A stretch of 64,000 nucleotides of DNA from Capsulimonadaceae bacterium (GTDB taxonomy: Bacteria > Armatimonadota > Armatimonadia > Armatimonadales > Capsulimonadaceae), in the NCBI GenBank assembly GCA_965215505.1, contig OZ244065.1, forward strand, positions 4,096,001 through 4,160,000, given 5' to 3'. This document shows, in pieces, positions 16,807 through 57,541 of this stretch. The translations under genes and the position numbers were made by a program. The notes beneath the pieces were generated by a model. It was given only the letters and a program-made list of their open reading frames with translations. It was not told the DNA's origin and did not search any database. The stretch's first letter is position 1; every line of letters starts with the position of its first letter.

Positions 16807-18328
<1,522 letters not shown>

Positions 18329-18604
18329 ATCTTGGCTGCTAGTCGTCTCCTACCTCGGTAGGAGCGCAAAGCGCCGATCACAGGTCGATCTTTCTTGGAA
18401 CTACTTTTTTGTTACTGCTCAATTGTTCATTTCACGAGACCCTATTTAGTTTTCAATGTGCATTGTCATCGTTTTGACAACACAGCAGCCAGCGAGAGTT
18501 TATGACCATTCTCATTCAGGCAACCGCATAAGATACGGAACAATCGTTTCGCACTCCTCACAAGGGAAGGCACGGTTGCCTTCCCTTTTGCGTTGCCGAC
18601 CTGG

Positions 18605-18681
18605 GGGCCTATAGCTCAGTTGGTTAGAGCACTCGGCTGATAACCGAGAGGTCAGAGGTTCGAGTCCTCTTGGGCCCACCA
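18605..18681 (+). tRNA. tRNA-Ile(GAT)
   Basis: Cloverleaf, anticodon arm ctcgg-ctgataa-ccgag, CCA encoded. Confidence 0.96.
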
Positions 18682-18705
18682 ACCCCTTTCACAAGGTTAT
18701 CGCCT

Positions 18706-18778
18706 GGGGAATTAGCTCAGTTGGTAGAGCGCTACTTTTGCAAAGTAGATGTCAGCGGTTCGAACCCGCTATTCTCCA
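18706..18778 (+). tRNA. tRNA-Ala(TGC), CCA not encoded
   Basis: Anticodon arm ctact-tttgcaa-agtag; G3:U70 pair; followed by ct instead of cca. Confidence 0.95.
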
Positions 18779-19068
18779 CTGATGCTTTCGCATCCTGCAC
18801 ATTAAGATTTGAGTTCTGTCGCCGCGTAACAAAGTTTCACGCACCAAGGCTTGACAAACTCGTAAGGTTTGCGGTAACATAATTGCCGCGAAGAAATCAC
18901 CGACCAGCCCTCATCGTTAGGGAGCGGTGCCGGAGAGAAGCAAATGCTCCTCTTCAACTGTCCTTTGACAACTGCATAAAGAAAAACAAACGGGTAAACA
19001 GCATTACAATTTCATCGATGCTGTCAGCGTAGCAATATGTCTGTCAGTGAAGAGAAAAACCTTTGAGT

Positions 19069-21999
<2,931 letters not shown>

Positions 22000-22089
22000 A
22001 CAAAAACTCAGCAATAATCGCTGTGAACCGTTTGTTTTTTGATATGCAGTTGTCCAAGGACAGCCCCTTCGGGGGATGTCCTAACGATT

Positions 22090-22204
<115 letters not shown>

Positions 22205-22212
22205 TTATTGTC

Positions 22213-29667: not shown

Positions 29668-30268
29668 ATGACAGTCGCGACACAGACGAAAACCAGTTAC
29701 GAAGAGTTTCTGGAATGGGCCGACGAAGACCAACACGTCGAGTGGGTCGAGGGGGAGGTCGTTTCTCTCGGTCCAGTCACCGAACGGCATCAAAACATCG
29801 CCTGCTTCCTGTTGATACTACTGCGGACGTATTCGGAAGAGCGTGTGCCGGGCGTGGTTCGCACCCGGCCATTCCAGATGAAGATGGCCCCCGATCTGCC
29901 GGGGCGTTCTCCTGACCTCCTGTCTATCGGTCGTGCGTGCCCCTCACGCCTGAGAGATGTATTTGGACGGCCCCGCCGACCTAGCCGTGGAGATCATCAG
30001 CCCGGAAAGCCGGGCGCGGGACCGGGGCGACAAGTTCTACGAGTACGAGCAGGGCGGCGTCCCTGAATACTGGCTGATTGACCCGGTGCGCGAGCAGGCC
30101 GAGTTCTGCCAGCGCGGCGCGAACGGTTTCTACTTCCCCGTCGCACCCGACGCGCAGGGCCGCTACTACAGTGCCGTCATGGCGGGCTTGTGGCTGCAAG
30201 TAGACTGGCTCTGGCAAACACCCCTGCCGCCGCTGCTGGACGTGCTGAAGGCGTGGGGTCTGGTCTAG
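29668..30268 (+). pseudogene. Uma2 (DUF820) family endonuclease, frameshifted
   Basis: N-half (EWVEGEV...HQ...RSPDL) in one frame; C-half (GPADLAVEIISP...DK...YEQGGVPEYWLIDP) in the +1 frame; switch near 29950-29958. Confidence 0.8.
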
Positions 30269-43213: not shown

Positions 43214-44818
43214 CTAGGCCGTCGCCTGCAAGACGTACAGGACGCCGTTCGTCGCGGCGCAGACGAGGTAGTCGCCGTACAGCGCCAGCCCCGCCGTCGC
43301 CAGGCGCGTGCCGGGCGTCGTCTCGTAGGCGCGCAGCACGTTATACTCGGCATCCAATGAATAAATGTTGCCGTCGTCCGCGCCCGCGAAAACTGTATGA
43401 CCCCCGCAGGCGGGGGCACACCGCAGGGGGGACGCGCTGACCCGGCGCGAGCGGATCAGGTTGCCGGTATTGACGGCGACGATGTGCAGGAACCCGTCGT
43501 CGCTCCCGACATAAAGCAGGCCATCGAAGGACAGCGCGGGCGATACGGAGACGGGGCGGGACGACACATTGGTCTTCCAGCGGACCGTGCCGGTCGCCGA
43601 CTCCACGGCCCAGACTGTGCCGGTCATGGTGGCGGCATACACGACGCCGTCGCGGACGAGCGGCGCGGCGTCGAACGGCCCGTCCGTCTCGGTCGCCCAG
43701 ACCTGTGCCCCCGTCGCCAGGTCGAAGGCGCGCAGGTGGCCGTCGTCGCTGCCCACAAAGGCCCCGCCGCCCCAAGCCGCCGGGGCCGTGTCGAGCTGCC
43801 CGCCGACCGGGAGCGTCCGCACCAACCGCCCGTCATCGCGGTCCAGAATGGCGAGGTCCGTGCCGGACGGCACCAGCAGGAGGTCGCCGGACACCGTGAC
43901 GCCCCCGTAGACAGCCCCGGCGACTTTTGACTCCCAGCGGCGCGTCCCACGAATCACGTCCATCGCCAGGACCGACCCGCCCAATGTCGCCGCGTACAGC
44001 ATCCCGTCAGGGGAGAGCGCCATCGCGCCCCGGTCGGGATACAGCCCGCTACCGTCCGGCAGGTCGAAGTCCCAGAGGGCCGCTCCGTTCGCCAGGGCGA
44101 AGGCGTAGATCGAGGCGCGTCCCGCCTCGGAGTCAATGGCCGAGGCGATCACCATGCCGAAGGCGGCCAGCGGCGCGCTCCACTCCAGAGCGTCGGCGGC
44201 CCGCGTCGGCGCTGACGTCGGGAAGGACCAGCGTCGGGCCAGGTGTGCGCCCAAAGGGGTTTCGGACGCCAGGGCGTGGCTGGCGTCCCCGCCCGGTGCC
44301 ATGCGCCAGTCCGCCTGGGTCCGCAGGACGTGGGCCGGGTTCAGGCGGCACCCGCGCGCCAGCCAGGTGTTCGGCGTCCCGCAGACCGGGCACAGGCGGA
44401 TGCGCTCCCCGCACCGGCGGCACTCGGTCGCACCCTCGGGCAGATCGGCGGCGCAGTGCGGGCAGTTGGACAGCGGCGGGACGACGGCGATGGCGAGTTC
44501 CACGTCGGCGGGCAGCGCGGCGGCGTCCGCCGCCTGCACGGCGAGGTACTGCCCAAACAGCGTGACCCGCGTCAGGGCCAGGGCCGCATTCCCGGCCCGC
44601 TCCGGCCTCAACTCCGCCACGACCGTCTGCGCCTCAGCGGGGGCCAGCGCGAACTCGGACGGGTACAGGTCCAGCCACGGCACGGCCGAGCGGACGCCCA
44701 CATGCAGGACGGCCTGCGCGTTCTCGTTGCGGACGACGGCGACGCGCCGGGCGACCTTGTCGGTGCCCAGCGCGTGCTCCTGCGAGAAATCGAATTCGGT
44801 TGTGTCGAGGACGGGCAT
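43214..44818 (-). CDS. PQQ-like beta-propeller repeat protein with N-terminal Ig-like region and zinc ribbons
   Basis: CPHC/CRRC/CPVC motifs; repeated GSDDG.L.A.D..TG...W blades; no signal peptide. Confidence 0.85.
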   Translation of the reverse strand: MPVLDTTEFDFSQEHALGTDKVARRVAVVRNENAQAVLHVGVRSAVPWLDLYPSEFALAPAEAQTVVAELRPERAGNAALALTRVTLFGQYLAVQAADAAALPADVELAIAVVPPLSNCPHCAADLPEGATECRRCGERIRLCPVCGTPNTWLARGCRLNPAHVLRTQADWRMAPGGDASHALASETPLGAHLARRWSFPTSAPTRAADALEWSAPLAAFGMVIASAIDSEAGRASIYAFALANGAALWDFDLPDGSGLYPDRGAMALSPDGMLYAATLGGSVLAMDVIRGTRRWESKVAGAVYGGVTVSGDLLLVPSGTDLAILDRDDGRLVRTLPVGGQLDTAPAAWGGGAFVGSDDGHLRAFDLATGAQVWATETDGPFDAAPLVRDGVVYAATMTGTVWAVESATGTVRWKTNVSSRPVSVSPALSFDGLLYVGSDDGFLHIVAVNTGNLIRSRRVSASPLRCAPACGGHTVFAGADDGNIYSLDAEYNVLRAYETTPGTRLATAGLALYGDYLVCAATNGVLYVLQATA

Positions 44819-44830
44819 GGGGTGGTACTT

Positions 44831-45151
44831 TTACTCGTACCGTATGCCGAGTCGGTTGGCTTCGTCGAAGGTCAGGCCCTCCGCCGCCGTCACATACAGG
44901 ATGCTGTCAGGGTCATGGGTCGCTTCGTAGGCGCGCATGATCATGACCGAGCGTTCGAACGGGTCTGTCCCGGCCCACGCATCCCAGATGACGTAGAGGT
45001 GAGAGGGGTACTCATGCTCCTCGCGCCTCTGCTCGACGATGACAGGCTCCGCCGCGTCTTCCTGGGGCTGCGCCCATTCTTGGACCAGCCGCGCCTCCAG
45101 AAGCGGCGCGTCCGGTTCAAGCACGTTGGGTTCAAATCTTCTGACTGGCAT
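44831..45151 (-). CDS. Small protein coupled to a HEPN gene (putative antitoxin), copy 1
   Basis: ATG 2 nt after the HEPN stop, with SD ggagg; paralogous to 46498..46830. Confidence 0.7.
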   Translation of the reverse strand: MPVRRFEPNVLEPDAPLLEARLVQEWAQPQEDAAEPVIVEQRREEHEYPSHLYVIWDAWAGTDPFERSVMIMRAYEATHDPDSILYVTAAEGLTFDEANRLGIRYE

Positions 45152-45153
45152 CG

Positions 45154-45654
45154 CTACCTCCACAACTTTCCGTAATTGGCGCGCAGCCAATCCATATCAT
45201 CGAGCAATATCAGGGCTTCCCTCGGCTGCGCCGCGTCCGGCCGGTAACGCATCCCGATCCACCAGTTTTGGTACAAGCGCCGGGTTCGAGATATGAATGG
45301 GGCATCCACGGCCGGAGGAAGCGGGTTGTTCTGCTGCCTCCTTTTTGCGCGCAGCAGAAGCGCCCAGAAGCGCAGGCTGTGGAAGGTTTCGCGGGGAATG
45401 CCTGGTATCAACCGCTGCGCGGTCTGCTGTGCCGGCCCCAACAGGGCGGCGATGCGGTCCGTCGGCTGCGCCCCGCTGAAGTGGAAGTAGGCCGACTTCA
45501 GCAGCATCTCCGCGCTGTAGCCCATCAGGTACATCCCCGCCCCGCCATAGCCGCCGGACATGAGTTCGCGTCCCTCCAGATACCGGGCGGAAGCGGCCCT
45601 CTCAAAGCTGAAGAGGGTTTCCTGTTGCTGTTCCAGCCGAAAACGAAGCGGCAC
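45154..45654 (-). CDS. HEPN domain protein (putative toxin)
   Basis: R..E...L..G...G.YL.GY..E.LLK ... HSL ... W...MRY pattern typical of HEPN. Confidence 0.72.
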   Translation of the reverse strand: MPLRFRLEQQQETLFSFERAASARYLEGRELMSGGYGGAGMYLMGYSAEMLLKSAYFHFSGAQPTDRIAALLGPAQQTAQRLIPGIPRETFHSLRFWALLLRAKRRQQNNPLPPAVDAPFISRTRRLYQNWWIGMRYRPDAAQPREALILLDDMDWLRANYGKLWR

Positions 45655-45756
45655 CCCTGCGTCTCCTCCAATTTTACCAGAAGCATAAAGACCTCTGCGC
45701 CAACGCCGGCACCTAAACCGCTGGCTACAGCGGCGCGCATCCGGCGTCGGCCCGCT

Positions 45757-46485
45757 TCACCTCGTCCGATAGTATATCCGGTAGTGGTAGCTCATCTCCA
45801 CCCCATCCACCTCGGACATGATGGTTTCCACCGCCCCGGTGGGGAACTCCATCGCCACGACACGCCGCAGCGTCTCCCGGTCGGGGGCTGTCCAAGTGGA
45901 CTCGACCGTCGCGTGTGCGAATCCGAGGCCGCCATAAAACTCGTTGTTCTCCTGCTGCATCCGGGCGGCCTGTCCCTGAGAGTAGGCGAAGCGGGCAAGG
46001 AAGCCGGCGAACTGCCCCGAGGTGAGGGCGTTGTCAACGATGAAGAAATGGCCGCCGGGCCGCAGCAGGCGCAGGCCCTCTTTGACGCCCGGCTCGCAGG
46101 AGCGCCCCGCCCCGCGCGCCGGGCCGAAGAAGTAGGCGAAGCGCGAGTGGATCATGTCCAGGCAGCCGTCGCGCAGCGGCACGTCCTCGGCCCGCGCCGC
46201 CAGGACGCTGATGTTGATCCTAACCCCGCCCGCGACACGGCCATAAAGCTGGCGGAGCATCTTGGGTGCAGGCTCGACGGCGAAGACGTGGGCGGCGCGT
46301 TCCGCGAAGCGGCAGGCGTGGCAGCCGCCGCCCGCACCGATGTCGGCCAACCACGCACCCGCTAGCGGCGCGACGCCTTCCATGAACCGCTCGATGCCTG
46401 CTCAGGGTCGGCAATGGCGTTCTCTAGGTCGTAAGTCGCCGCGTCTTCCTCGCCTGGGTAGTGGTAGATGTCGGGCGCGTTCAGC
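45757..46485 (-). pseudogene. Class I SAM methyltransferase with an apparently frameshifted N-terminus
   Basis: LADIGAGGG motif in ORF 45757..46383; upstream coding-like segment (NAPDIYHY...YDLENAIADPEQ) is one base out of frame near 46398-46400. Confidence 0.6.
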
Positions 46486-46497
46486 TTATCGGGCCTC

Positions 46498-46830
46498 TCA
46501 AGCGGCTGGTTCCAGCGGCGCGTACCCAATACCCATGCGCTCCGCTTCCGCCGCCGTCAGGCCGAGCGCGACACGCAGGTTGGATGCGGATGCGCTCCCT
46601 TTTGCCTCACGGTAGGCTTCCAATGTGATTTCAGAGCGCTCCAGTTGCGTGAGTTGACCCCACTCGCTCCAGATTACATACAGATGTGTGGGTGCCTGTT
46701 GCCCCTGGGCTTCCAGCACGATGACTGGCTCCGCCATGCCCTCCTGCGGATTCTTGATCTCTTCCGCGATGCGATGGGAGAACGCCTCATAAACAGGATT
46801 TTTCGGATATATTCTTTGTGCGTAAGACAT
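46498..46830 (-). CDS. Paralog of the HEPN partner protein, copy 2
   Basis: Shares PQE..AEPVIV, P.HLYVIW..W, ERS, AY and GLT..EA.R.GI.Y with 44831..45151. Confidence 0.75.
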   Translation of the reverse strand: MSYAQRIYPKNPVYEAFSHRIAEEIKNPQEGMAEPVIVLEAQGQQAPTHLYVIWSEWGQLTQLERSEITLEAYREAKGSASASNLRVALGLTAAEAERMGIGYAPLEPAA

Positions 46831-46896: not shown

Positions 46897-47280
46897 TCAG
46901 GGCGTTGCTAAATCAGCCTCACGCATTTGCCGAAACGTATGCCGCAATGTTGCTTGTGCCTCGGGCAATTTGCACCCCTTCTCATCATACGCGATCCCCT
47001 GAATGTTATAGTAGCGGAGTTGAAACTTATCCACTTCATGCCAATACTGGGCGCAAAGGGAGACTCCGTCAAGAGGATAAATCTGGTGTGCTGTCTTATT
47101 GGCGAAGATGTAGAGCGCAAAATGTGAACTGACGGGCCAGACGCCATTTCTGATCCCCGCCTCAGCGACCGCCGTGACCAAAGCCGTCATCGGCTCCTGA
47201 CGATGAGCGGGATGTATTTCTTGGTAGCGTTGGACGATCTCGGCCCATCGCTCGTTTGTCAGTTCAGCAGATGACATCAT
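46897..47280 (-). CDS. Hypothetical protein, lower GC
   Basis: 127-aa ORF directly downstream of the E2 gene; gggag SD-like sequence upstream. Confidence 0.55.
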   Translation of the reverse strand: MMSSAELTNERWAEIVQRYQEIHPAHRQEPMTALVTAVAEAGIRNGVWPVSSHFALYIFANKTAHQIYPLDGVSLCAQYWHEVDKFQLRYYNIQGIAYDEKGCKLPEAQATLRHTFRQMREADLATP

Positions 47281-47298: not shown

Positions 47299-48708
47299 TT
47301 ACGCAAACATCAGGTACGGCTGTTCCAATGTCTCCTTGAGCTGCGCCAGGAACGCGGCGGCGGGGGCACCGTCCACGACGCGGTGGTCGAAGGACAGGCA
47401 GAGGTTCATCATCGGGCGCACGGCGGGCAATCCGTCCACGGCGACGACCGTGTCGCAGATGGCGCAGACGCCCAGGATGGCGGTCTGGGGCGGGACGATG
47501 ATGGGGTCAAACTGCGTGACGCCGAACGTGCCCAGGTTTGAGAGCGAGAAGGTCCCGCCCGTCACCTCGTCCGGCGCGAGGCCGCCGCTCTTGGCCCGTG
47601 CGGCGAGGTCCTTCAAGGCACGGCTGAACTCGCCCAGCGACTTCCCCTGGGCGTCCTTGACGACCGGCACGATCAGGCCGTCCGCGCCCAAGGAGACGGC
47701 GACGCCCAGATGCACGGCGGGGTGCAGCGTGATGTCGTCCCCGGCCAGGGTGCTGTTGAGGTAAGGGTGGTCCAGCAAAGCCCGCGCCGCAGCCTTGGCG
47801 ATGATGTCGGTGAACGAGACGCGGACGCCCAGCGTCTTCTCGATGGCGGGCAGGACCTGCGCCCGGAACCGGGTCGCCTCGGACATATCCACCGGCAAGG
47901 TCAGCGTGACGTGCGGCGCGGTCCGGGCGCTCCGGCTCACCGCCTCGGCCACCATCTTCCGCATCCCGCGCAGGGTGACGACTCGCCCCCCGGCAGCAGG
48001 GGGGGCGTCGGGGCGGGCCGGCGGGGCGACGCTGCGCTTGACGTCCTCCTGCGTCACCTTGCCGCCGTGGCCCGTCCCCTGCACCGCCTCGACCGAGACG
48101 CCGTGTTCGGAGGCGACACGCTGGGCGAGGGGCGAGACGCGCGGCGCAGCCCGCTCGGCCTCCTTCCGGCGGGCCTGCTCTTCCTCCTGGAAGGCGACCA
48201 CGTCCGCCTCGACGACCCGGCCGTCTACGCCGGTGCCACACCCAGCCAGCCGCGTGAGGTCCACGCTATTCTCGTCGGCGTACCGGCGGGCGCGCGGGCT
48301 GGCGAAGACGCGGTCCCCCGGCACTTCCAGTGCCGGGCCGCCCTGGAGTGGAAGTCGCTCCGTGACCGGGGACACGCCGCCCGGCTTGTCTGCTATGGCG
48401 CAGGCGGTCGCCGGCAGCTCGATCGGGGCGGCACCGGGTTCCTCGCCGAGCAGGCCCGAGATGTCTTCGTCCGCCGCCCCCAGGATCGCCACGGGGGCGT
48501 TGACCGGGACCGTCGCGTCCACGGCGGCCAGTATCTTCCGCAGGACGCCCGCCTCGGGGGCCTCGACCTCCATGTTGACCTTGTCCGTCATCACCTCATA
48601 AAGCGCCTCACCCTTGGCGACGGTTTCCCCTTCGGATTTGAACCACTGTGTGATCGTGCCTTCTTCCATGCTGTTGCCCAGCGCGGGCAGCCCGAGCGTC
48701 TTTGCCAT
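47299..48708 (-). CDS. 2-oxoacid dehydrogenase E2 (dihydrolipoamide acyltransferase)
   Basis: Lipoyl domain EVMTDKV, two E3-binding domains (ASPRARR, VSPLAQR), DHRVVDG. Confidence 0.93.
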   Translation of the reverse strand: MAKTLGLPALGNSMEEGTITQWFKSEGETVAKGEALYEVMTDKVNMEVEAPEAGVLRKILAAVDATVPVNAPVAILGAADEDISGLLGEEPGAAPIELPATACAIADKPGGVSPVTERLPLQGGPALEVPGDRVFASPRARRYADENSVDLTRLAGCGTGVDGRVVEADVVAFQEEEQARRKEAERAAPRVSPLAQRVASEHGVSVEAVQGTGHGGKVTQEDVKRSVAPPARPDAPPAAGGRVVTLRGMRKMVAEAVSRSARTAPHVTLTLPVDMSEATRFRAQVLPAIEKTLGVRVSFTDIIAKAAARALLDHPYLNSTLAGDDITLHPAVHLGVAVSLGADGLIVPVVKDAQGKSLGEFSRALKDLAARAKSGGLAPDEVTGGTFSLSNLGTFGVTQFDPIIVPPQTAILGVCAICDTVVAVDGLPAVRPMMNLCLSFDHRVVDGAPAAAFLAQLKETLEQPYLMFA

Positions 48709-48739
48709 TCGTGTCTCCTCGTTCGGCCTCCCCCGCACG

Positions 48740-50143
48740 TCACTTGCTGCCCCACATGATGAACTCATGGCCCGAGTCGGCCGGCGTCTTCGGCTTGGCC
48801 GCCGGCTCCGGAGCCGGGCTGTCGGGCGGCCTGGGCTGGGGCGGAGCGGTCGAGGCCACGGCAGGCACGGGAACGGGCGAGGGAGCGGGCGGGGCCACCT
48901 CCGGGCGCAGCGGGACGAGCGGCCTGAAGTGGAACGCGACGCGCGGGGGCCGGGGGTCGGGGGTGACCGCCGCCAGAGCCTTGATGTCACTCCGGACCGG
49001 ACGCCCGGCCTCCTCCAAACGGTCCAGGTCCGTCAGGAACGGCCCGGCCTCCTGGCGGACCTGATCGGGCGCGTCCCGCTCGGAGAGCCGGGCGAGGGCC
49101 GGGCGCAGGCGCTCGCGCGCCGCGCTCAGGCCCGCCAGGTCCGTCGCCAACTGCTCCCGCAGGAGGCGGCGCGGCCCGTCCCCCGCCTCCGCGCGGGCGG
49201 CGCTGCCACGCGCCAGAAGCCGGTCCGCACGCGGCAGCGCGGCCCGATACCGCGCCAGAAGCCGACGCCTCAGCGCGTCGGTCGGGTCCGCGTCCGCTGA
49301 AACCGCCCCGGACGGGACTGCCCCGGCTGGGGCTGCGGGGACGGCGCGCGGCACCGCCCAGGCGCTTCCCACGATACCGGGATGCGCCGGGGTTGTGAAG
49401 GGGGTGGGGACACGGAGGCGCGGAGCCGGGGCCGCGACAGGGACGGCAACGGGCGGGGCCGCCGGGTCGGCGTCCGCCGCAGTGGAGTCCGCCGCAGTGG
49501 AGTCCGCCGCAGTGGAGTCCGCCGCAGTGGAGTCCGCAGCCGGATCGGCGTTCCCGCTCGGTGTCAACCCGTCCCCGCGTCGCTCCTCCGGGGGGATGCC
49601 GGCCGCACCCCCGACGGGGATGGACGGCGAGACGCCGAAGTTCGCGGGTCGCCGGGGGCTGGAGCCGTCCAGGGAAAGCCCCACCACCACCAGCACCACG
49701 ACCGCGCCCGCCGTGGCCCCCAGCCAGGCGGAGCGCGTCATCCGGATACTGTCCGCCGACCCCTCGTGCGCTTCCTCCGGGGGGCCGCCTTGGAAGCCGG
49801 CCGGCGTCACGGACGCCTGGTGACTCCTGGACGCAGGCGAAGGCGGGGATTTCAGCGGCATGGGTCTCAGCGGCGGTGCCCCTGCCCGGCGCGCGGCCTG
49901 GAGGACGGCGTCATAGGCCGCCTTGCGTGGGGCGTCCGAGAGGAAGGTGTAGGCGGCATTGACGCGCCGGAACTGCTCCGCGCACCGAGCGTCGTCGCCG
50001 TGCAGGTCGGGGTGGCAGAGCTTCGCGAGCCGCCGGTACTGGCTCTTGACGTCCTCCATCGGGCTGCCCGGCTCTAGTTCCAGGACCCCATAATGGTCCT
50101 GCTCCATAGACATCATAGGTTTCGCTCTTTCAACCGCGTCCAT
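48740..50143 (-). CDS. J-domain membrane protein with Pro/Ala-rich C-terminal region
   Basis: HYGVLEL...HPD...VNAAYTFLSD..RKAAYD; one TM segment. Confidence 0.8.
   Translation of the reverse strand: MDAVERAKPMMSMEQDHYGVLELEPGSPMEDVKSQYRRLAKLCHPDLHGDDARCAEQFRRVNAAYTFLSDAPRKAAYDAVLQAARRAGAPPLRPMPLKSPPSPASRSHQASVTPAGFQGGPPEEAHEGSADSIRMTRSAWLGATAGAVVVLVVVGLSLDGSSPRRPANFGVSPSIPVGGAAGIPPEERRGDGLTPSGNADPAADSTAADSTAADSTAADSTAADADPAAPPVAVPVAAPAPRLRVPTPFTTPAHPGIVGSAWAVPRAVPAAPAGAVPSGAVSADADPTDALRRRLLARYRAALPRADRLLARGSAARAEAGDGPRRLLREQLATDLAGLSAARERLRPALARLSERDAPDQVRQEAGPFLTDLDRLEEAGRPVRSDIKALAAVTPDPRPPRVAFHFRPLVPLRPEVAPPAPSPVPVPAVASTAPPQPRPPDSPAPEPAAKPKTPADSGHEFIMWGSK
49472..49537. repeat. 15-bp in-frame tandem repeat, 4 copies plus a partial
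   Basis: gtccgccgcagtgga x4, encoding (AADST)n. Confidence 0.9.
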
Positions 50144-51220: not shown

Positions 51221-51694
51221 TCACCGCCGCCCGCGCTGTGTCGCCATCGGCCCCGGCAGGACTTCCAGCGCAATGCCGTCCGCCAGACGGTAGATGTAGA
51301 AGTCTTCGTCAATGCTGAAGACGCGCGTGTACCCTTCCGCCTCGGCCAGCGCGACCAGGGACGCATCCGCGAGGTCCATCGGACGGTCCGCGTATTGCTC
51401 CATGAGTTCCAAAATGCGCGTCGTCTCTTGCCGAGTCGGTGTATGCAGCCTCAGCGTGTCGGTCGCGATGTATCGTGCAACGAGCCGTTGCATGTCCCAG
51501 CCGTCCTCCCGCCCCGTCAAGTACATGGCCTCGGCGAGACAGGGCCATGTCGTCACCATAGGCATGGCGAGAACTGCAAAAAGGGCAGTGCAGCGTGTGA
51601 ACTGCGCGGGCTGGCCCTGCGGGTCCACCAAAGCAAACAGGGGGCCGGTGTCCGTCAGGGTTCCGTCCGGTCCTTTTGTCGAAGCCCGGTCCAC
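51221..51694 (-). CDS. PIN domain (VapC-like) toxin
   Basis: LTDTGPLFALVD, TTWPCLAEAMY, PMDLADASLVA, DEDFYIYR. Confidence 0.9.
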   Translation of the reverse strand: MDRASTKGPDGTLTDTGPLFALVDPQGQPAQFTRCTALFAVLAMPMVTTWPCLAEAMYLTGREDGWDMQRLVARYIATDTLRLHTPTRQETTRILELMEQYADRPMDLADASLVALAEAEGYTRVFSIDEDFYIYRLADGIALEVLPGPMATQRGRR

Positions 51695-51978
51695 AGGTCG
51701 AAACCCTGTCGGCGGAACTTCTCCACGATGATCCCATCTATGGGAGAGTCACGGTAAGCCTGCCGCGCCGCTGAGTCCGCCGGGCCTGGAACCCGCGCTT
51801 GCGCTTCCGCGATGAGGACGGCGAGGACGGCTTTCCGGCGCTCCTGGTCGGCGACCCATTCCGCCGGCGTCATCTCTGGGCCGGCTCCGTTCTCTGACGA
51901 CTCGGCCTGCCGCTGCATCCGCGTCCGCGACTTCCGGCCCGCCGCGTACTTCTTCCGAGTCCGTGTCTCCTGCCTCAT
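51655..51978 (-). CDS. Putative antitoxin upstream of the PIN gene
   Basis: ATG overlaps the smpB TGA; 3' end overlaps the PIN gene start. Confidence 0.6.
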   Translation of the reverse strand: MRQETRTRKKYAAGRKSRTRMQRQAESSENGAGPEMTPAEWVADQERRKAVLAVLIAEAQARVPGPADSAARQAYRDSPIDGIIVEKFRRQGFDLWTGLRQKDRTEP

Positions 51979-56025: not shown

Positions 56026-56278
56026 CTACTGGTGTAAGAAACGGGCACGGAGGGGGCCGGGGGCATCGTTGTCCTCGGCGCAACTCACAAGGCCACCACA
56101 AAGATATTTATCACCGCCTCGTAATTTGAGCAGGTTGTGTGGTATATTGTAGCGAGCGGTCAGTGCTAGCCGTTCCCTCCATTGTGGCCGCGTCCTACTG
56201 TACCTACGCAGCCATTTTCGGCCTTGCGCTTCCTTGGCGCCTTTCCCTGTTGTCCCGAGTCCGGAAAGAGGTCGCGTC

Positions 56279-57541
56279 ATGTTCCGCCGCATAATCTCAT
56301 CCCTGACGGTTCGTTTTTGCCTCATCCTATTTCTGCTGTTTGGCCTAAGCAGTCGGAACAGTTCTGCACAGCAGGCGGCCAGACCCACTGCTCGTCTAGC
56401 AAGTGCTTCGGTGAACGGTTCCGCTATGAAGGTTGAGGCTTTCACCTATGGCCTGACGAAAGCATCCAAGGTGGAAGCAAACCGACCGGGCCGCCGGGGC
56501 AGACGGCAGGCTGCTGGTATCCCACCCCGACTCGATCTTACCATCCCGCCCCGTCTCAATCAGCGGGTGCGGAGGCCAGGCCGACTTACCCCAAGCACCG
56601 GGACTCCCAACCCTTCCATTCCGATCGAAGCTCCCGACTTTCCGATAACTGGTAGATGGACGGGGACCGTTACCCAGGGAAGCACGGTAGTGAATTGCAC
56701 AATGGATACTGAGTCAGATCCAGGTGGTGATGGACCTTTCTCGAACGCATATCCGGTAAATGGCTCTTCAACCTACTCAACGCAGGACGGTAAAAAAATC
56801 AGCATGTGTGATTTCGTGGGGGCCTTCTGGAAGAATGAGCTTCGCTATCAAGAATCAGGCCAGATAGAGCCTCTCACCATGAACAGAGCTGGCTTGAAAC
56901 AAGGCGACCTTTGGCTTTCTTCCAATGGGACACATTTGGCAGGTCAGTGGATTGCTCGAAATGGCTCGTCTGGAACGATTCATCTTGAAAAAGTTAATTC
57001 TGCATCGAAAGTTGTAAACATCTTTATTGGTGGTTTCTTTGATGCTACATATAAACCAGTCAAATCGTATTTTGACAATCATAAATCTGATTTCTCAAAT
57101 CCTATATACTTCAGCTACGATGCGAGACGCGAGATTAGGCAGTATATCGCGGGCCTTCCGACTAATACGGTGATTAACCTTATTGGGCATAGTTACGGCG
57201 GTGATACCGCTGCGATAATGGCAGTTCGTTGTGGCAAACCAATCAACTTACTTATTACCATTGATCCTGTAAGCTGGGTCGGAATAAACTCAATATTTGG
57301 CCCAAGCTACTCTACCCTCACAGCCCATGCAGCTAAATGGATTGACGTTAATGCAACTGGTGGAGGCATCTTTAAGGGCGGCAATCTGCCTGCGGGGGTA
57401 GGAGGAGCTTGGAACACAGGGCCAAGTAAAAGTGCAACGATATACTATGAAGTTCCTAAGGTCCATGCGGACTTTGAAGGAATGATGGAAGCGGACGGAC
57501 CTACTGGTAGAAGTGCAGAGCAGATGTTGATTGGCCACTGA
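56279..57541 (+). CDS. Secreted protein with C-terminal alpha/beta-hydrolase domain, low GC
   Basis: Signal peptide; INLIGHSYGG nucleophile elbow, LLITIDPV, late His (VHADF). Confidence 0.7.
   Translation: MFRRIISSLTVRFCLILFLLFGLSSRNSSAQQAARPTARLASASVNGSAMKVEAFTYGLTKASKVEANRPGRRGRRQAAGIPPRLDLTIPPRLNQRVRRPGRLTPSTGTPNPSIPIEAPDFPITGRWTGTVTQGSTVVNCTMDTESDPGGDGPFSNAYPVNGSSTYSTQDGKKISMCDFVGAFWKNELRYQESGQIEPLTMNRAGLKQGDLWLSSNGTHLAGQWIARNGSSGTIHLEKVNSASKVVNIFIGGFFDATYKPVKSYFDNHKSDFSNPIYFSYDARREIRQYIAGLPTNTVINLIGHSYGGDTAAIMAVRCGKPINLLITIDPVSWVGINSIFGPSYSTLTAHAAKWIDVNATGGGIFKGGNLPAGVGGAWNTGPSKSATIYYEVPKVHADFEGMMEADGPTGRSAEQMLIGH

What the first reader, a model, noticed from the sequence alone, without database searches (positions are those of the whole stretch)
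44831..46830. HEPN toxin paired with a non-canonical, duplicated partner (pseudo-MNT or BolA-like)
Seen in sequence: a HEPN-like gene (45154-45654; GYSAEMLLK...HSL...W..MRY) is followed 2 nt later by a 106-aa ORF. A clear paralog of that ORF, sharing AEPVIV, HLYVIW..W, ERS..I..AY and GLT..EA.R.GI.Y, lies about 1.3 kb upstream (46498-46830) with no HEPN of its own. Established knowledge: HEPN toxins usually pair with MNT antitoxins carrying GS...DxD. Both partner copies lack GS and DxD, although their pattern echoes the MNT C-terminal half (D.D.VVS..F....ER...TPEE) and BolA. Inference: an undescribed TA or defence module with a catalytically dead antitoxin that acts by binding, plus an orphan antitoxin copy that may cross-protect.
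Basis: partly seen in the sequence, partly recalled or inferred. Interest (0 to 1): 0.72.

Follow-up and report, generated by a model that had tools for sequence, protein, structure and literature searches.

The report
HEPN-like gene with unknown acidic partner
A basic, HEPN-fold protein and a small acidic protein of an uncharacterised but widespread family form a conserved, tightly coupled gene pair that looks like a toxin with a binding-type inhibitor, and a second, divergent copy of the small gene sits nearby without a HEPN gene.

Summary
A 166-aa ORF (45154-45654, minus strand) is followed 2 nt later by a 106-aa ORF (44831-45151). A 110-aa relative (46498-46830; 41% identity, E 8e-20) lies upstream with no second HEPN-like gene in the window.

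The 166-aa protein matches no Pfam, NCBIfam or PADLOC model. Its confident model (pLDDT 90.8) is nearest to solved HEPN proteins, but weakly (E >= 0.13). It lacks Rx4-6H and keeps invariant E49, H92, R123 and R136, which resembles the AF0298-type HEPN-T pattern.

The partner is not a dead MNT. It has no GS/DxD motif and an alpha-beta-beta-alpha-beta-alpha fold. That fold resembles BolA only in topology (Foldseek E 0.04; hhalign against E. coli BolA 0.35%). It belongs to an unnamed family of 611 clusters at 50% identity.

The pairing recurs in an Armatimonadota MAG at the syntenic site and in two read-through proteins. The HEPN-like family is basic (21 of 22) and the partner family acidic (117 of 123).

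The two partner copies belong to different sublineages. Copy B holds the ancestral slot, where a low-GC 127-aa ORF replaces the HEPN gene.

A toxin-inhibitor function is inferred. Binding and toxicity were not tested, because the complex prediction never ran.

The parts
45154..45654 (-). HEPN-like protein, 166 aa, basic (pI 10.3); the putative toxin or RNA-binding component
   Evidence: ORF. 26 homologs. Invariant E49, K53, E89, H92, S93, W97, R105, R123 and R136 in 22 of 22 sequences. AF2 model pLDDT 90.8, all-helical. The first 7 Foldseek ranks are chains of 5 entries (2q00, 2hsb, 1wol, 1ufb, 4nqf) at E 0.13-0.37 and prob 0.63-1.00; 3 are named HEPN in the output, 2q00 is listed as HEPN-T in PMC3710099 Table 1, and 1ufb is HEPN by my recall. 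The three listed best Atlas clusters carry PF05168 on 19-33% of members. No Pfam, NCBIfam, PADLOC or PHROG hit.
44831..45151 (-). Partner copy A, 106 aa, acidic (pI 4.5, net charge -13); the putative inhibitor, translationally coupled to the HEPN-like gene (2-nt gap)
   Evidence: Model pLDDT 80.1, alpha-beta-beta-alpha-(alpha)-beta-alpha. The family has 611 clusters. Charge.
46498..46830 (-). Partner copy B, 110 aa, of the sublineage with a YAP..AA tail. It is 51% identical to the partner next to the HEPN-like gene of locus L001. No HEPN-like gene is adjacent.
   Evidence: GC 57.7%, GC3 62%.
46897..47280 (-). ORF127, of no known family. It lies in a 48-55% GC patch and fills the slot directly after the E2 gene, where L001 has its HEPN-like gene. 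It may be a replacement gene or an insertion.
   Evidence: No plasmid or phage match. A 66-nt gap with a terminator-like hairpin (46877-46858) separates it from copy B.
45757..46383 (-). Class I SAM methyltransferase between copy B and the HEPN-like gene. It is probably truncated or frameshifted at its 5' end. It is not part of the module, because it is absent from L001.
   Evidence: Methyltransf_11 at 8.4e-12, with the match starting at residue 14. ORF 46362-46529 lies in another frame. L001 gene order.
47299..48702 (-). 2-oxoacid dehydrogenase E2 acyltransferase, used as the synteny anchor
   Evidence: Pfam 2-oxoacid_dh at 4.5e-73. 71% identical to the E2 of L001, which is followed directly by a HEPN-like gene and a partner gene.

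Best explanation
This is a two-gene, translationally coupled module. The first gene encodes a basic HEPN-fold protein of the HEPN-T kind. It lacks the canonical Rx4-6H motif but keeps an invariant set of polar residues (E49 in helix 2, H92 in the insert before helix 3, R123 and R136). I infer that this protein binds or cuts RNA and is harmful when free. The second gene encodes a small, strongly acidic alpha/beta protein of an unnamed family. I infer that it neutralises the first protein by direct binding and not by nucleotidylation, as RnlB does for the HEPN toxin RnlA or barstar does for barnase. Copy B belongs to a different sublineage. Its HEPN-like neighbour, which is still present at the same chromosomal site in a related Armatimonadota genome, has been lost or replaced by the low-GC ORF127. 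Copy B is therefore either a leftover inhibitor or the partner of a swapped-in gene. Shown: the genes, their conservation, the fold class, the missing motifs, the recurrent pairing, the opposite charges and the synteny. Inferred: toxicity, RNA as the target, binding and neutralisation.
For: Coupling: a 2-nt gap with a Shine-Dalgarno sequence inside the HEPN-like gene's 3' end, and the same 2-nt spacing in L001 (coordinates). Fold: the model has pLDDT 90.8. The first seven Foldseek ranks are chains of five entries (2q00, 2hsb, 1wol, 1ufb, 4nqf). Three are named HEPN in the output, 2q00 is listed as HEPN-T in PMC3710099 Table 1, and 1ufb is HEPN by my recall. Csm6, sacsin HEPN and TM0613 rank lower. 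The three listed best ESM Atlas clusters score 0.95-0.96 and carry PF05168 on 19-33% of their members. Residue pattern: E49, H92, R123 and R136 are invariant in 22 of 22 sequences. Passages of PMC3710099 say that AF0298 (2hsb)-type HEPN-T and AbiV lack the H of Rx4-6H, keep the basic residue, have a second conserved H N-terminal to it in the insert between helices 2 and 3, and have an acidic residue in helix 2. Pairing in relatives: L001 has E2, then a 172-aa HEPN-like gene (40% identity), then a partner. P0069 is a read-through protein whose first 100 residues match the HEPN-like profile (hhalign 98%, E 1.5e-13) and whose C-terminus is a partner. P0177 carries a ...SYHSLLFW... fragment followed by a partner (judged by eye). 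Three of the 8 close partner hits share source and longest-contig length with a HEPN-like hit: 181564, 5513 and 1606. Divergence of the two genes runs in parallel in the four linkable pairs: 77/71, 78/72, 69/57 and 42/45%. Charge: 21 of 22 HEPN-like proteins have pI > 8 (median 10.0), and 117 of 123 partners have pI < 6 (median 4.95). Gene order with the toxin first and a protein antitoxin second is known for the HEPN toxin RnlA and RnlB (abstract of PMC8266594 in the listing; the gene order is recalled). GC3 of the pair is 77-78%, against 86-90% in the flanking genes.
Against: No Foldseek match reaches E <= 0.001; the best is 0.13, with TM 0.44-0.66. No Pfam HEPN hit in 0 of 22 members, and no PDB hit with the profile. 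The window copy has no Rx4-6H string. At the site that best resembles the canonical motif, R123-x4-position 128, the residue is Y in 15 of 22 and H in 7 of 22, so catalysis is uncertain. I could not measure distances in the model to check that E49, H92 and R136 lie together. There is no match in 72,556 plasmids or 50,697 phage records for either protein. No integrase or transposase was found among the 52 window ORFs scanned. The chromosomal position is conserved next to SmpB and E2 in two genomes, which suits a housekeeping pair as well. No PADLOC model matches. Neighbourhoods of the 611 partner clusters could not be surveyed.
Confidence: 0.45

Rival explanations
1. The two proteins form a non-toxic, chromosomal housekeeping or regulatory pair. 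The HEPN-like protein is a non-catalytic RNA- or nucleotide-binding subunit, like MtlR or the substrate-binding HEPN domains of nucleotidyltransferases. The small acidic protein is its stable companion or modulator. Neither kills the cell.
For: No canonical Rx4-6H. The position after SmpB and E2 is conserved in two genomes whose E2 proteins are 71% identical. No plasmid or phage matches. No mobile-element genes in the window. PMC3710099 passages say that HEPN domains without the motif probably act non-catalytically.
Against: Eight polar residues of the HEPN-like family are invariant, which suggests an active or ligand site. The same paper notes that HEPN proteins lacking the motif scored as toxins in a genome-wide screen. 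GC3 is lower than in the neighbours. In the window the ancestral site has lost its HEPN gene while a second pair sits 1.7 kb away, a turnover typical of accessory genes. The charge complementarity is strong.
Confidence: 0.3
2. Copy B is not an orphan. ORF127 is a non-homologous toxin or effector that replaced the HEPN gene in the same slot, and copy B neutralises it. This would be partner swapping of the kind described for type II TA networks.
For: ORF127 starts 18 nt after the E2 stop, exactly where L001 has its HEPN-like gene. ORF127 and the 5' half of copy B share a 48-55% GC patch, which suggests joint acquisition. Copy B keeps an intact ORF, a Shine-Dalgarno-like GGAGA and all of the family's near-invariant residues.
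Against: A 66-nt gap with a terminator-like hairpin separates ORF127 from copy B, unlike the 2-nt coupling of the HEPN-like gene and copy A. ORF127 has no family, PDB, plasmid or phage match. Its pI of 6.3 is not that of a basic nucleic-acid toxin.
Confidence: 0.15
3. The partner is a true but very divergent BolA-family protein (Fe-S/glutaredoxin partner or transcription factor), and its adjacency to the HEPN-like gene has no toxin-antitoxin meaning.
For: The top Foldseek hits are BolA proteins 4pug, 3o2e and 3tr3, at E 0.044-0.054 and prob 0.77-0.85. The helix/strand order matches the BolA order as I recall it. An Atlas cluster at rank 16 (score 0.84) carries PF01722 on 22% of members. The A3 profile touches mouse BolA1 1v60 at E 1.4. 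P0114 matches BolA at E 0.071.
Against: hhalign of the 123-sequence profile against E. coli BolA gives probability 0.35%. PF01722 is not among the 25 commonest weak Pfam matches (E <= 10) of the 123 members; 33 families were matched and the other 8 were not shown. TM-scores are only 0.39-0.52. The residues conserved in BolA, as I recall them, are not the ones conserved here (P36, W56, W59, R67, GLT..EA).
Confidence: 0.07
4. The partner is a degenerate minimal nucleotidyltransferase (pseudo-MNT) that has lost catalysis.
For: HEPN genes classically pair with MNT genes (PMC3710099). The Sulfolobus putative nucleotidyltransferase 2rff appears at Foldseek rank 8 (E 0.17, prob 0.38).
Against: The two strands form a hairpin with no helix between them. 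That does not fit the NTase core as I recall it. No conserved GS or DxD. No NTase family is among the 25 commonest weak Pfam matches of the 123 members. The gene order is reversed: MNT almost always lies 5' of HEPN (PMC3710099 passage), whereas here the partner lies 3'.
Confidence: 0.03

Closest known systems
HEPN-MNT toxin-antitoxin modules (HepT-MntA; HEPN-T/PF05168 and HEPN-M/DUF86 with minimal nucleotidyltransferases)
   Same: A small HEPN-fold protein is encoded next to a small partner gene on the same strand with tight coupling. The nearest solved structures to the model (2hsb, 1wol, 1ufb, 1o3u) are, by my recall, from this MNT-associated HEPN group.
   Different: The partner is not an NTase: it has no GS/DxD, a different fold and no Pfam NTase match. 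Neutralisation by AMPylation is therefore not possible. The gene order is HEPN first and partner second, the reverse of the usual MNT-then-HEPN order (PMC3710099 passage). Rx4-6H is absent.
AF0298-type HEPN-T and AbiV (HEPN with an alternative conserved histidine)
   Same: The basic residue is kept, the motif histidine is missing, a second invariant His (H92) lies N-terminal in the insert between core helices 2 and 3, and an acidic residue (E49) lies in helix 2. 2hsb gives the best TM-score (0.66 normalised to the target, prob 1.00).
   Different: No sequence-level match to PF05168 or to any PDB chain. The spatial clustering of the residues was not checked. The AbiV antitoxin is an RNA (abstract of 10.1101/2024.05.05.592566), whereas here the partner is a protein.
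RnlA-RnlB / LsoA-LsoB (HEPN RNase toxin followed by a small protein antitoxin)
   Same: It would work the same way: a HEPN toxin encoded first, and a downstream small protein that inhibits by binding (abstract of PMC8266594 seen in the listing; the gene order is recalled).
   Different: RnlA is a large multidomain protein with a canonical HEPN site. No relation between RnlB and the partner family was tested here.
BolA family (PF01722)
   Same: The order of helices and strands (alpha-beta-beta-alpha-beta-alpha) matches the BolA order as I recall it. BolA proteins are the best, though weak, structural matches.
   Different: No sequence relation (hhalign 0.35%). PF01722 is not among the 25 commonest weak Pfam matches of the 123 members. 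Different conserved residues.

Membership tests
HEPN superfamily | All-alpha, four-helix up-down core, with solved HEPN domains as the nearest structures | tested here: met
   The model has pLDDT 90.8 and seven helices. Foldseek ranks 1-7 are chains of 2q00, 2hsb, 1wol, 1ufb and 4nqf. Csm6 5fsh is at rank 9, sacsin HEPN at rank 15 and TM0613 at rank 26. The matches are weak: E 0.13-1.2, TM (target) 0.52-0.66 for the HEPN-named hits, and none at E <= 0.001.
HEPN superfamily | Rx4-6H endoRNase motif at the end of core helix 3 | tested here: not met
   The window protein has no Rx4-6H string. At R123-x4-position 128 the residue is Y in 15 of 22 and H in 7 of 22 family members. L001 has H there.
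HEPN-T, AF0298-type (alternative active site) | Basic residue kept, a second conserved His N-terminal in the helix 2-3 insert, an acidic residue in helix 2 (PMC3710099 passages) | tested here: inconclusive
   E49 (helix 37-59), H92 (loop before helix 94-107), R123 and R136 are invariant in 22 of 22. Their proximity in space could not be measured because no coordinates were available to scripts.
HEPN (Pfam PF05168) | A match to the Pfam model at its gathering score | tested here: not met
   0 of 22 members match PF05168, even at E <= 10. The three listed best ESM Atlas clusters carry PF05168 on only 19-33% of members.
MNT antitoxin (Pol-beta minimal nucleotidyltransferase) | GS and DxD catalytic motifs and the NTase fold | tested here: not met
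   Invariant columns are only P36 and R67. 7 of 150 representatives have any G[ST]..DxD string. The topology is alpha-beta-beta-alpha-beta-alpha. No NTase family is among the 25 commonest weak Pfam matches of the 123 members.
BolA (PF01722) | Sequence membership (Pfam model or profile match) | tested here: not met
   hhalign of A3 against E. coli BolA gives 0.35%. PF01722 is not among the 25 commonest weak Pfam matches of the 123 members. The only touches are P0114 at E 0.071, below the cut-off, and 1v60 at E 1.4.
BolA (PF01722) | BolA-type fold | tested here: inconclusive
   Foldseek best hits 4pug, 3o2e and 3tr3 have E 0.044-0.054, prob 0.77-0.85 and TM 0.39-0.52. The model's pLDDT is 80.1.
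Type II toxin-antitoxin module | Two small adjacent co-oriented genes whose pairing is conserved in relatives | tested here: met
   The window pair, L001, read-through proteins P0069 and P0177, and 3 of 8 close partner hits sharing a contig length with a HEPN-like hit.
Type II toxin-antitoxin module | The toxin arrests growth, and the antitoxin binds and neutralises it | not testable with these tools
   This needs expression and rescue assays. The single complex-prediction job never ran.
Known anti-phage defence systems (PADLOC-DB v2) | A match to a system model | tested here: not met
   There was no hit for the HEPN-like protein, copy B or ORF127. Copy A has only a chance-level SspB hit at E 0.037.

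The most novel reading that the evidence does not exclude
The partner family (611 clusters at 50% identity, about 105 aa, acidic, no database model) is a new, widespread class of protein inhibitor, built on a BolA-like scaffold, for AF0298-type HEPN proteins that use a non-canonical active site. Its members can be re-paired with unrelated genes. Here ORF127 sits in the HEPN slot. In P0175, P0182 and P0185 the partner is fused to a conserved ~140-aa C-terminal domain of unknown function. On this reading the family is a promiscuous antitoxin or immunity module comparable to the hub antitoxin domains of type II TA networks.
Probability: 0.3. Interest if true: 0.72.

Novelty: new variant of a known kind. 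Interest (0 to 1): 0.52.

Why it matters
HEPN proteins are among the commonest RNA-targeting toxins in prokaryotic conflict systems. Their known protein antidotes are few: MNT by AMPylation, RnlB/LsoB by binding, and a ParA-like ATPase that has only been predicted. A new antidote family found in hundreds of clusters, paired with a HEPN that lacks Rx4-6H, would do two things. It would widen the catalogue of HEPN control mechanisms. It would also give a direct test of whether the 'alternative histidine' HEPN-T proteins are active nucleases, a question raised in 2013 (PMC3710099) that, as far as my searches show, is still open for this group. If the pair is instead non-toxic, it would be a conserved HEPN-based regulatory complex of unknown role in Armatimonadota, Planctomycetota and other environmental phyla.

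Tried and rejected
**Complex prediction**
- No result exists, so binding remains untested.

**Calls that failed or were unavailable**
- The first structure and representative jobs failed. I repeated them successfully.

**Searches with limited reach**
- The genome-contig scan used narrow patterns. It confirmed 1 locus out of 21 pattern matches.
- The search for longer fused forms scored only 8000 candidates and found 1 (P0185). That is weak evidence on how rare fusions are.

**Negative results**
- Pfam, NCBIfam, PADLOC and PHROGs on the four proteins gave nothing significant.
- PDB sequence and profile searches gave only chance-level hits, including SOX-2 at E 0.17.
- tblastn against plasmids and phages found no match for the partner (P0035) in either collection, for the HEPN-like protein in plasmids, or for ORF127 in either collection.
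- Foldseek of the partner model against viral models gave nothing below E 0.24.
- The C-terminal domain of the P0175, P0182 and P0185 fusions is not HEPN-like (hhalign 1.2%).
- No second, decayed HEPN gene lies near copy B.
- A 28-nt, 79% match between the 3' end of copy B and the DNA upstream of the HEPN-like gene does not extend. I treat it as chance.
- The only promoter-like site on the minus strand lies inside the methyltransferase gene, and I found no palindromic operator upstream of the HEPN-like gene.

**Literature searches that found no description of this pairing**
- 'HEPN' + 'BolA' (in the two papers I opened, the only hit was the surname Bolam).
- 'HEPN' + 'NetFlax'.
- 'HEPN' + 'antitoxin' + 'KH domain'.
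- 'HEPN' + 'toxin-antitoxin' + 'Planctomycetota'.
- 'HEPN' + 'Armatimonadota' (0 papers).
- Additional file 1 of PMC3710099, which lists the HEPN families, was not opened. It could name this HEPN-like group.
Full report
**What is in the sequence**

On the minus strand the gene order is:
- E2 acyltransferase of a 2-oxoacid dehydrogenase (ORF 47299-48990; the part compared with L001 is 47299-48702)
- ORF127 (46897-47280)
- partner copy B (46498-46830, 110 aa)
- a SAM methyltransferase (45757-46383)
- the HEPN-like gene (45154-45654, 166 aa)
- partner copy A (44831-45151, 106 aa)
- a PQQ/BamB-like beta-propeller protein with a zinc ribbon (43214-44818)

The ORF list gives copy A as 119 aa from a TTG at 45190. 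Relatives begin at Met-Pro, which is the ATG at 45151. That ATG lies 2 nt after the HEPN-like stop codon, with a GGAGG 5 nt upstream. Copies A and B share 39 of 96 residues (41%, E 8e-20). tblastn of both HEPN-like proteins against the 64-kb window finds one HEPN-like gene and two partner genes.

**The HEPN-like protein**

It matches no model in Pfam, NCBIfam, PADLOC or PHROGs. None of 22 family members matches PF05168, even at E <= 10. A profile search of PDB sequences finds nothing meaningful.

It has 26 relatives in the word-indexed collection, at 36-95% identity and nearly all 161-171 aa.

An AlphaFold2 model built on 22 sequences is confident (pLDDT 90.8, pTM 0.86) and all-helical. In Foldseek against the PDB, ranks 1-7 are chains of five entries: 2q00, 2hsb, 1wol, 1ufb and 4nqf. 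Three of these (2hsb, 1wol, 4nqf) are named HEPN in the output. 2q00 is listed as HEPN-T in PMC3710099 Table 1, and 1ufb is HEPN by my recall. Csm6, the sacsin HEPN domain and TM0613 follow. The scores are weak: E 0.13-1.2, TM normalised to the target 0.52-0.66 for the HEPN-named hits, and nothing at E <= 0.001.

The three listed best ESM Atlas clusters (score 0.95-0.96) carry PF05168 on 19-33% of their members.

I accept a HEPN-type fold. I do not file the protein as a PF05168 member.

**Catalytic motif**

The window protein has no Rx4-6H string. Invariant in 22 of 22 members are E49, K53, E89, H92, S93, W97, R105, R123 and R136. At R123-x4-position 128 the residue is Y in 15 members, including the window copy, and H in 7. 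L001 has H there.

Passages of Anantharaman et al. 2013 (PMC3710099) describe the HEPN-T group typified by AF0298 (2hsb) together with AbiV. In these, the motif histidine is absent, the basic residue is kept, a second strongly conserved histidine lies N-terminal in the insert between helices 2 and 3, and an acidic residue lies in helix 2.

Against the predicted helices, E49 lies in helix 37-59. H92 lies in the loop before helix 94-107. R123 and R136 lie at the end of the helix 114-137 region, ahead of the last helix. The pattern fits that group. I could not measure whether these residues meet in space.

**The partner**

Neither copy matches any family library. A profile of 10 sequences, run over 1.84 billion representatives, finds 611 clusters at E <= 1e-3 and 241 at E <= 1e-10. 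Most are 100-119 aa. Scanning 123 members against Pfam gives only scattered weak touches; the best is DUF7167 in 10 members, with best E 0.011.

Only P36 and R67 are invariant. Nearly invariant are L22, E25, V54, W56, W59, A90, G92, L93, T94, E97 and A98. There is no GS or DxD.

The model (pLDDT 80.1) has the order alpha, beta, beta, alpha, short alpha, beta, alpha. The best Foldseek hits are BolA proteins (4pug, 3o2e, 3tr3; E 0.044-0.054, prob 0.77-0.85, TM 0.39-0.52). A Sulfolobus putative nucleotidyltransferase, 2rff, comes at rank 8 with prob 0.38. hhalign of the 123-sequence profile against E. coli BolA gives 0.35%.

The pseudo-MNT idea fails on fold, on motifs and on gene order. The Atlas places the family among unnamed clusters in which Planctomycetota is the commonest phylum.

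**Is the pairing conserved?**

The only genome locus I could fetch, L001 (an Armatimonadota MAG), shows UDP-glucose dehydrogenase, epimerase, SmpB, E2, a 172-aa HEPN-like gene and then a partner, with the same 2-nt spacing. The window has the same flanking genes, and the E2 proteins are 71% identical. The L001 HEPN-like protein is 40% identical to the window's.

P0069 is a distant partner relative. It is a read-through protein whose first 100 residues match the HEPN-like profile (hhalign 98%, E 1.5e-13), followed by a disrupted stretch and then a complete partner. P0177 shows the same arrangement, judged by eye.

Three of the 8 close partner hits share source and longest-contig length with a HEPN-like hit. 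In the four linkable pairs the two genes diverge in step: 77/71, 78/72, 69/57 and 42/45%.

The sample is small. The collections that would allow a real neighbourhood survey were closed or capped.

**Charge**

21 of 22 HEPN-like proteins have pI above 8 (median 10.0; the window copy is 10.3). 117 of 123 partners have pI below 6 (median 4.95; copy A is 4.5 with net charge -13). A basic nucleic-acid-binding protein next to an acidic small protein is the usual picture of a nuclease with a protein inhibitor. This is an analogy and not a test.

**The two partner copies**

They are not a recent duplication.
- Copy A falls in a well supported clade with its 7 close relatives (SH-like and SH-aLRT support 95-98).
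- Copy B groups with sequences that end in a YAP..AA tail, including the L001 partner (51% identity), with weaker support (80-92).
- Forcing A and B together costs 46.5 log-likelihood units, but the AU test does not formally reject it (p 0.075).

Copy B, not copy A, lies in the position after E2 that holds the HEPN-like gene plus partner in L001. In the window that HEPN slot is filled by ORF127, which starts 18 nt after the E2 stop. ORF127 lies in a 48-55% GC patch that extends into the 5' half of copy B.

| Gene | GC (%) | GC3 (%) |
|---|---|---|
| ORF127 | 52 | 57 |
| Copy B | 58 | 62 |
| Copy A | 62 | 77 |
| HEPN-like | 63 | 78 |
| Methyltransferase, E2, PQQ propeller | 68-72 | 86-90 |

(All values.)

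ORF127 is unrelated to the HEPN-like family (hhalign 0.08%). No HEPN remnant is detectable near copy B. A 66-nt spacer with a terminator-like hairpin separates ORF127 from copy B. Copy B is thus either a leftover inhibitor whose HEPN gene was replaced, or the partner of a swapped-in gene.

**Context**

The window is ordinary chromosomal DNA. It holds an rRNA operon (16.8-22.2 kb) and biosynthetic and transport genes. No integrase, transposase or NTase was found among the 52 ORFs scanned. Neither protein has a match in the plasmid or phage collections. A PIN-domain gene lies 6 kb away, next to SmpB.

**Mechanism**

My best reading (confidence 0.45) is a toxin-inhibitor pair. A HEPN-T-like protein binds or cuts RNA through a non-canonical site. 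The co-translated acidic partner holds it in check by direct binding, as RnlB does with RnlA, and not by nucleotidylation.

The main rival (0.3) is a non-toxic regulatory complex. It is favoured by the missing Rx4-6H, the H/Y variation at position 128 and the stable chromosomal position.

Toxicity, binding, target and any defence role are all inferred. The one complex prediction allowed never ran, because the queue was full through to and the cap was reported as used.

**Novelty**

Five full-text searches found no description of a HEPN gene paired with this partner family. The partner has no model in four libraries. The HEPN census of 2013 lists MNT and ParA-like partners and a HEPN-T group fused to ferredoxin-like domains, but I did not open its supplementary family lists.

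I rate the finding a new variant of a known kind: a HEPN two-gene module with a new partner family. It is of moderate interest until toxicity and binding are shown.

Noticed in passing
window 45757-46529 (-): The SAM methyltransferase ORF begins only 13 residues before its SAM-binding motif (the Pfam match starts at residue 14). A 55-aa ORF in another frame (46362-46529) covers the DNA just upstream and overlaps the 3' end of partner copy B. The gene looks 5'-truncated or frameshifted, either as a pseudogene or as an assembly error.
   Followed up: partly
window 51221-51960 (-): A PIN-domain gene (Pfam PIN 3.6e-6) sits directly downstream of SmpB. There is room for a small upstream antitoxin-like ORF at about 51695-51960. 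This is probably a VapBC-type pair. Together with a TIM-barrel gene and a DnaJ-domain gene, it is absent between SmpB and E2 in the related locus L001.
   Followed up: partly
window 56234-57541 (+): A second low-GC patch (about 51% GC, against 65-70% around it) holds a 435-aa ORF with no Pfam match at E <= 1e-6. It contains a GHSYGG string that resembles a lipase/esterase serine motif. This was judged by eye and not tested.
   Followed up: no
proteins P0175, P0182, P0185 (relatives, not in the window): Three partner-family members are fused to a conserved ~140-aa C-terminal domain (42-46% identity between them). The domain has no Pfam match and no likeness to the HEPN-like family (hhalign 1.2%). 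P0114 is a tandem duplication of the partner domain.
   Followed up: partly
window 45715-45742 and 46500-46527: A 28-nt, 79% identical direct repeat links the 3' end of partner copy B with the intergenic DNA upstream of the HEPN-like gene. The similarity does not extend in an alignment of the flanks, so it is probably chance.
   Followed up: yes
window 29957-30268 (+): A 103-aa ORF matches only the C-terminal half of the Uma2 putative restriction endonuclease family (profile positions 92-171 of 172, E 1.6e-15). It may be a gene fragment.
   Followed up: no
window 16807-22205 (+): A complete rRNA operon is present: 16S, two tRNAs, 23S and 5S. It accounts for the 52-54% GC stretch at 16-22 kb.
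   Followed up: no
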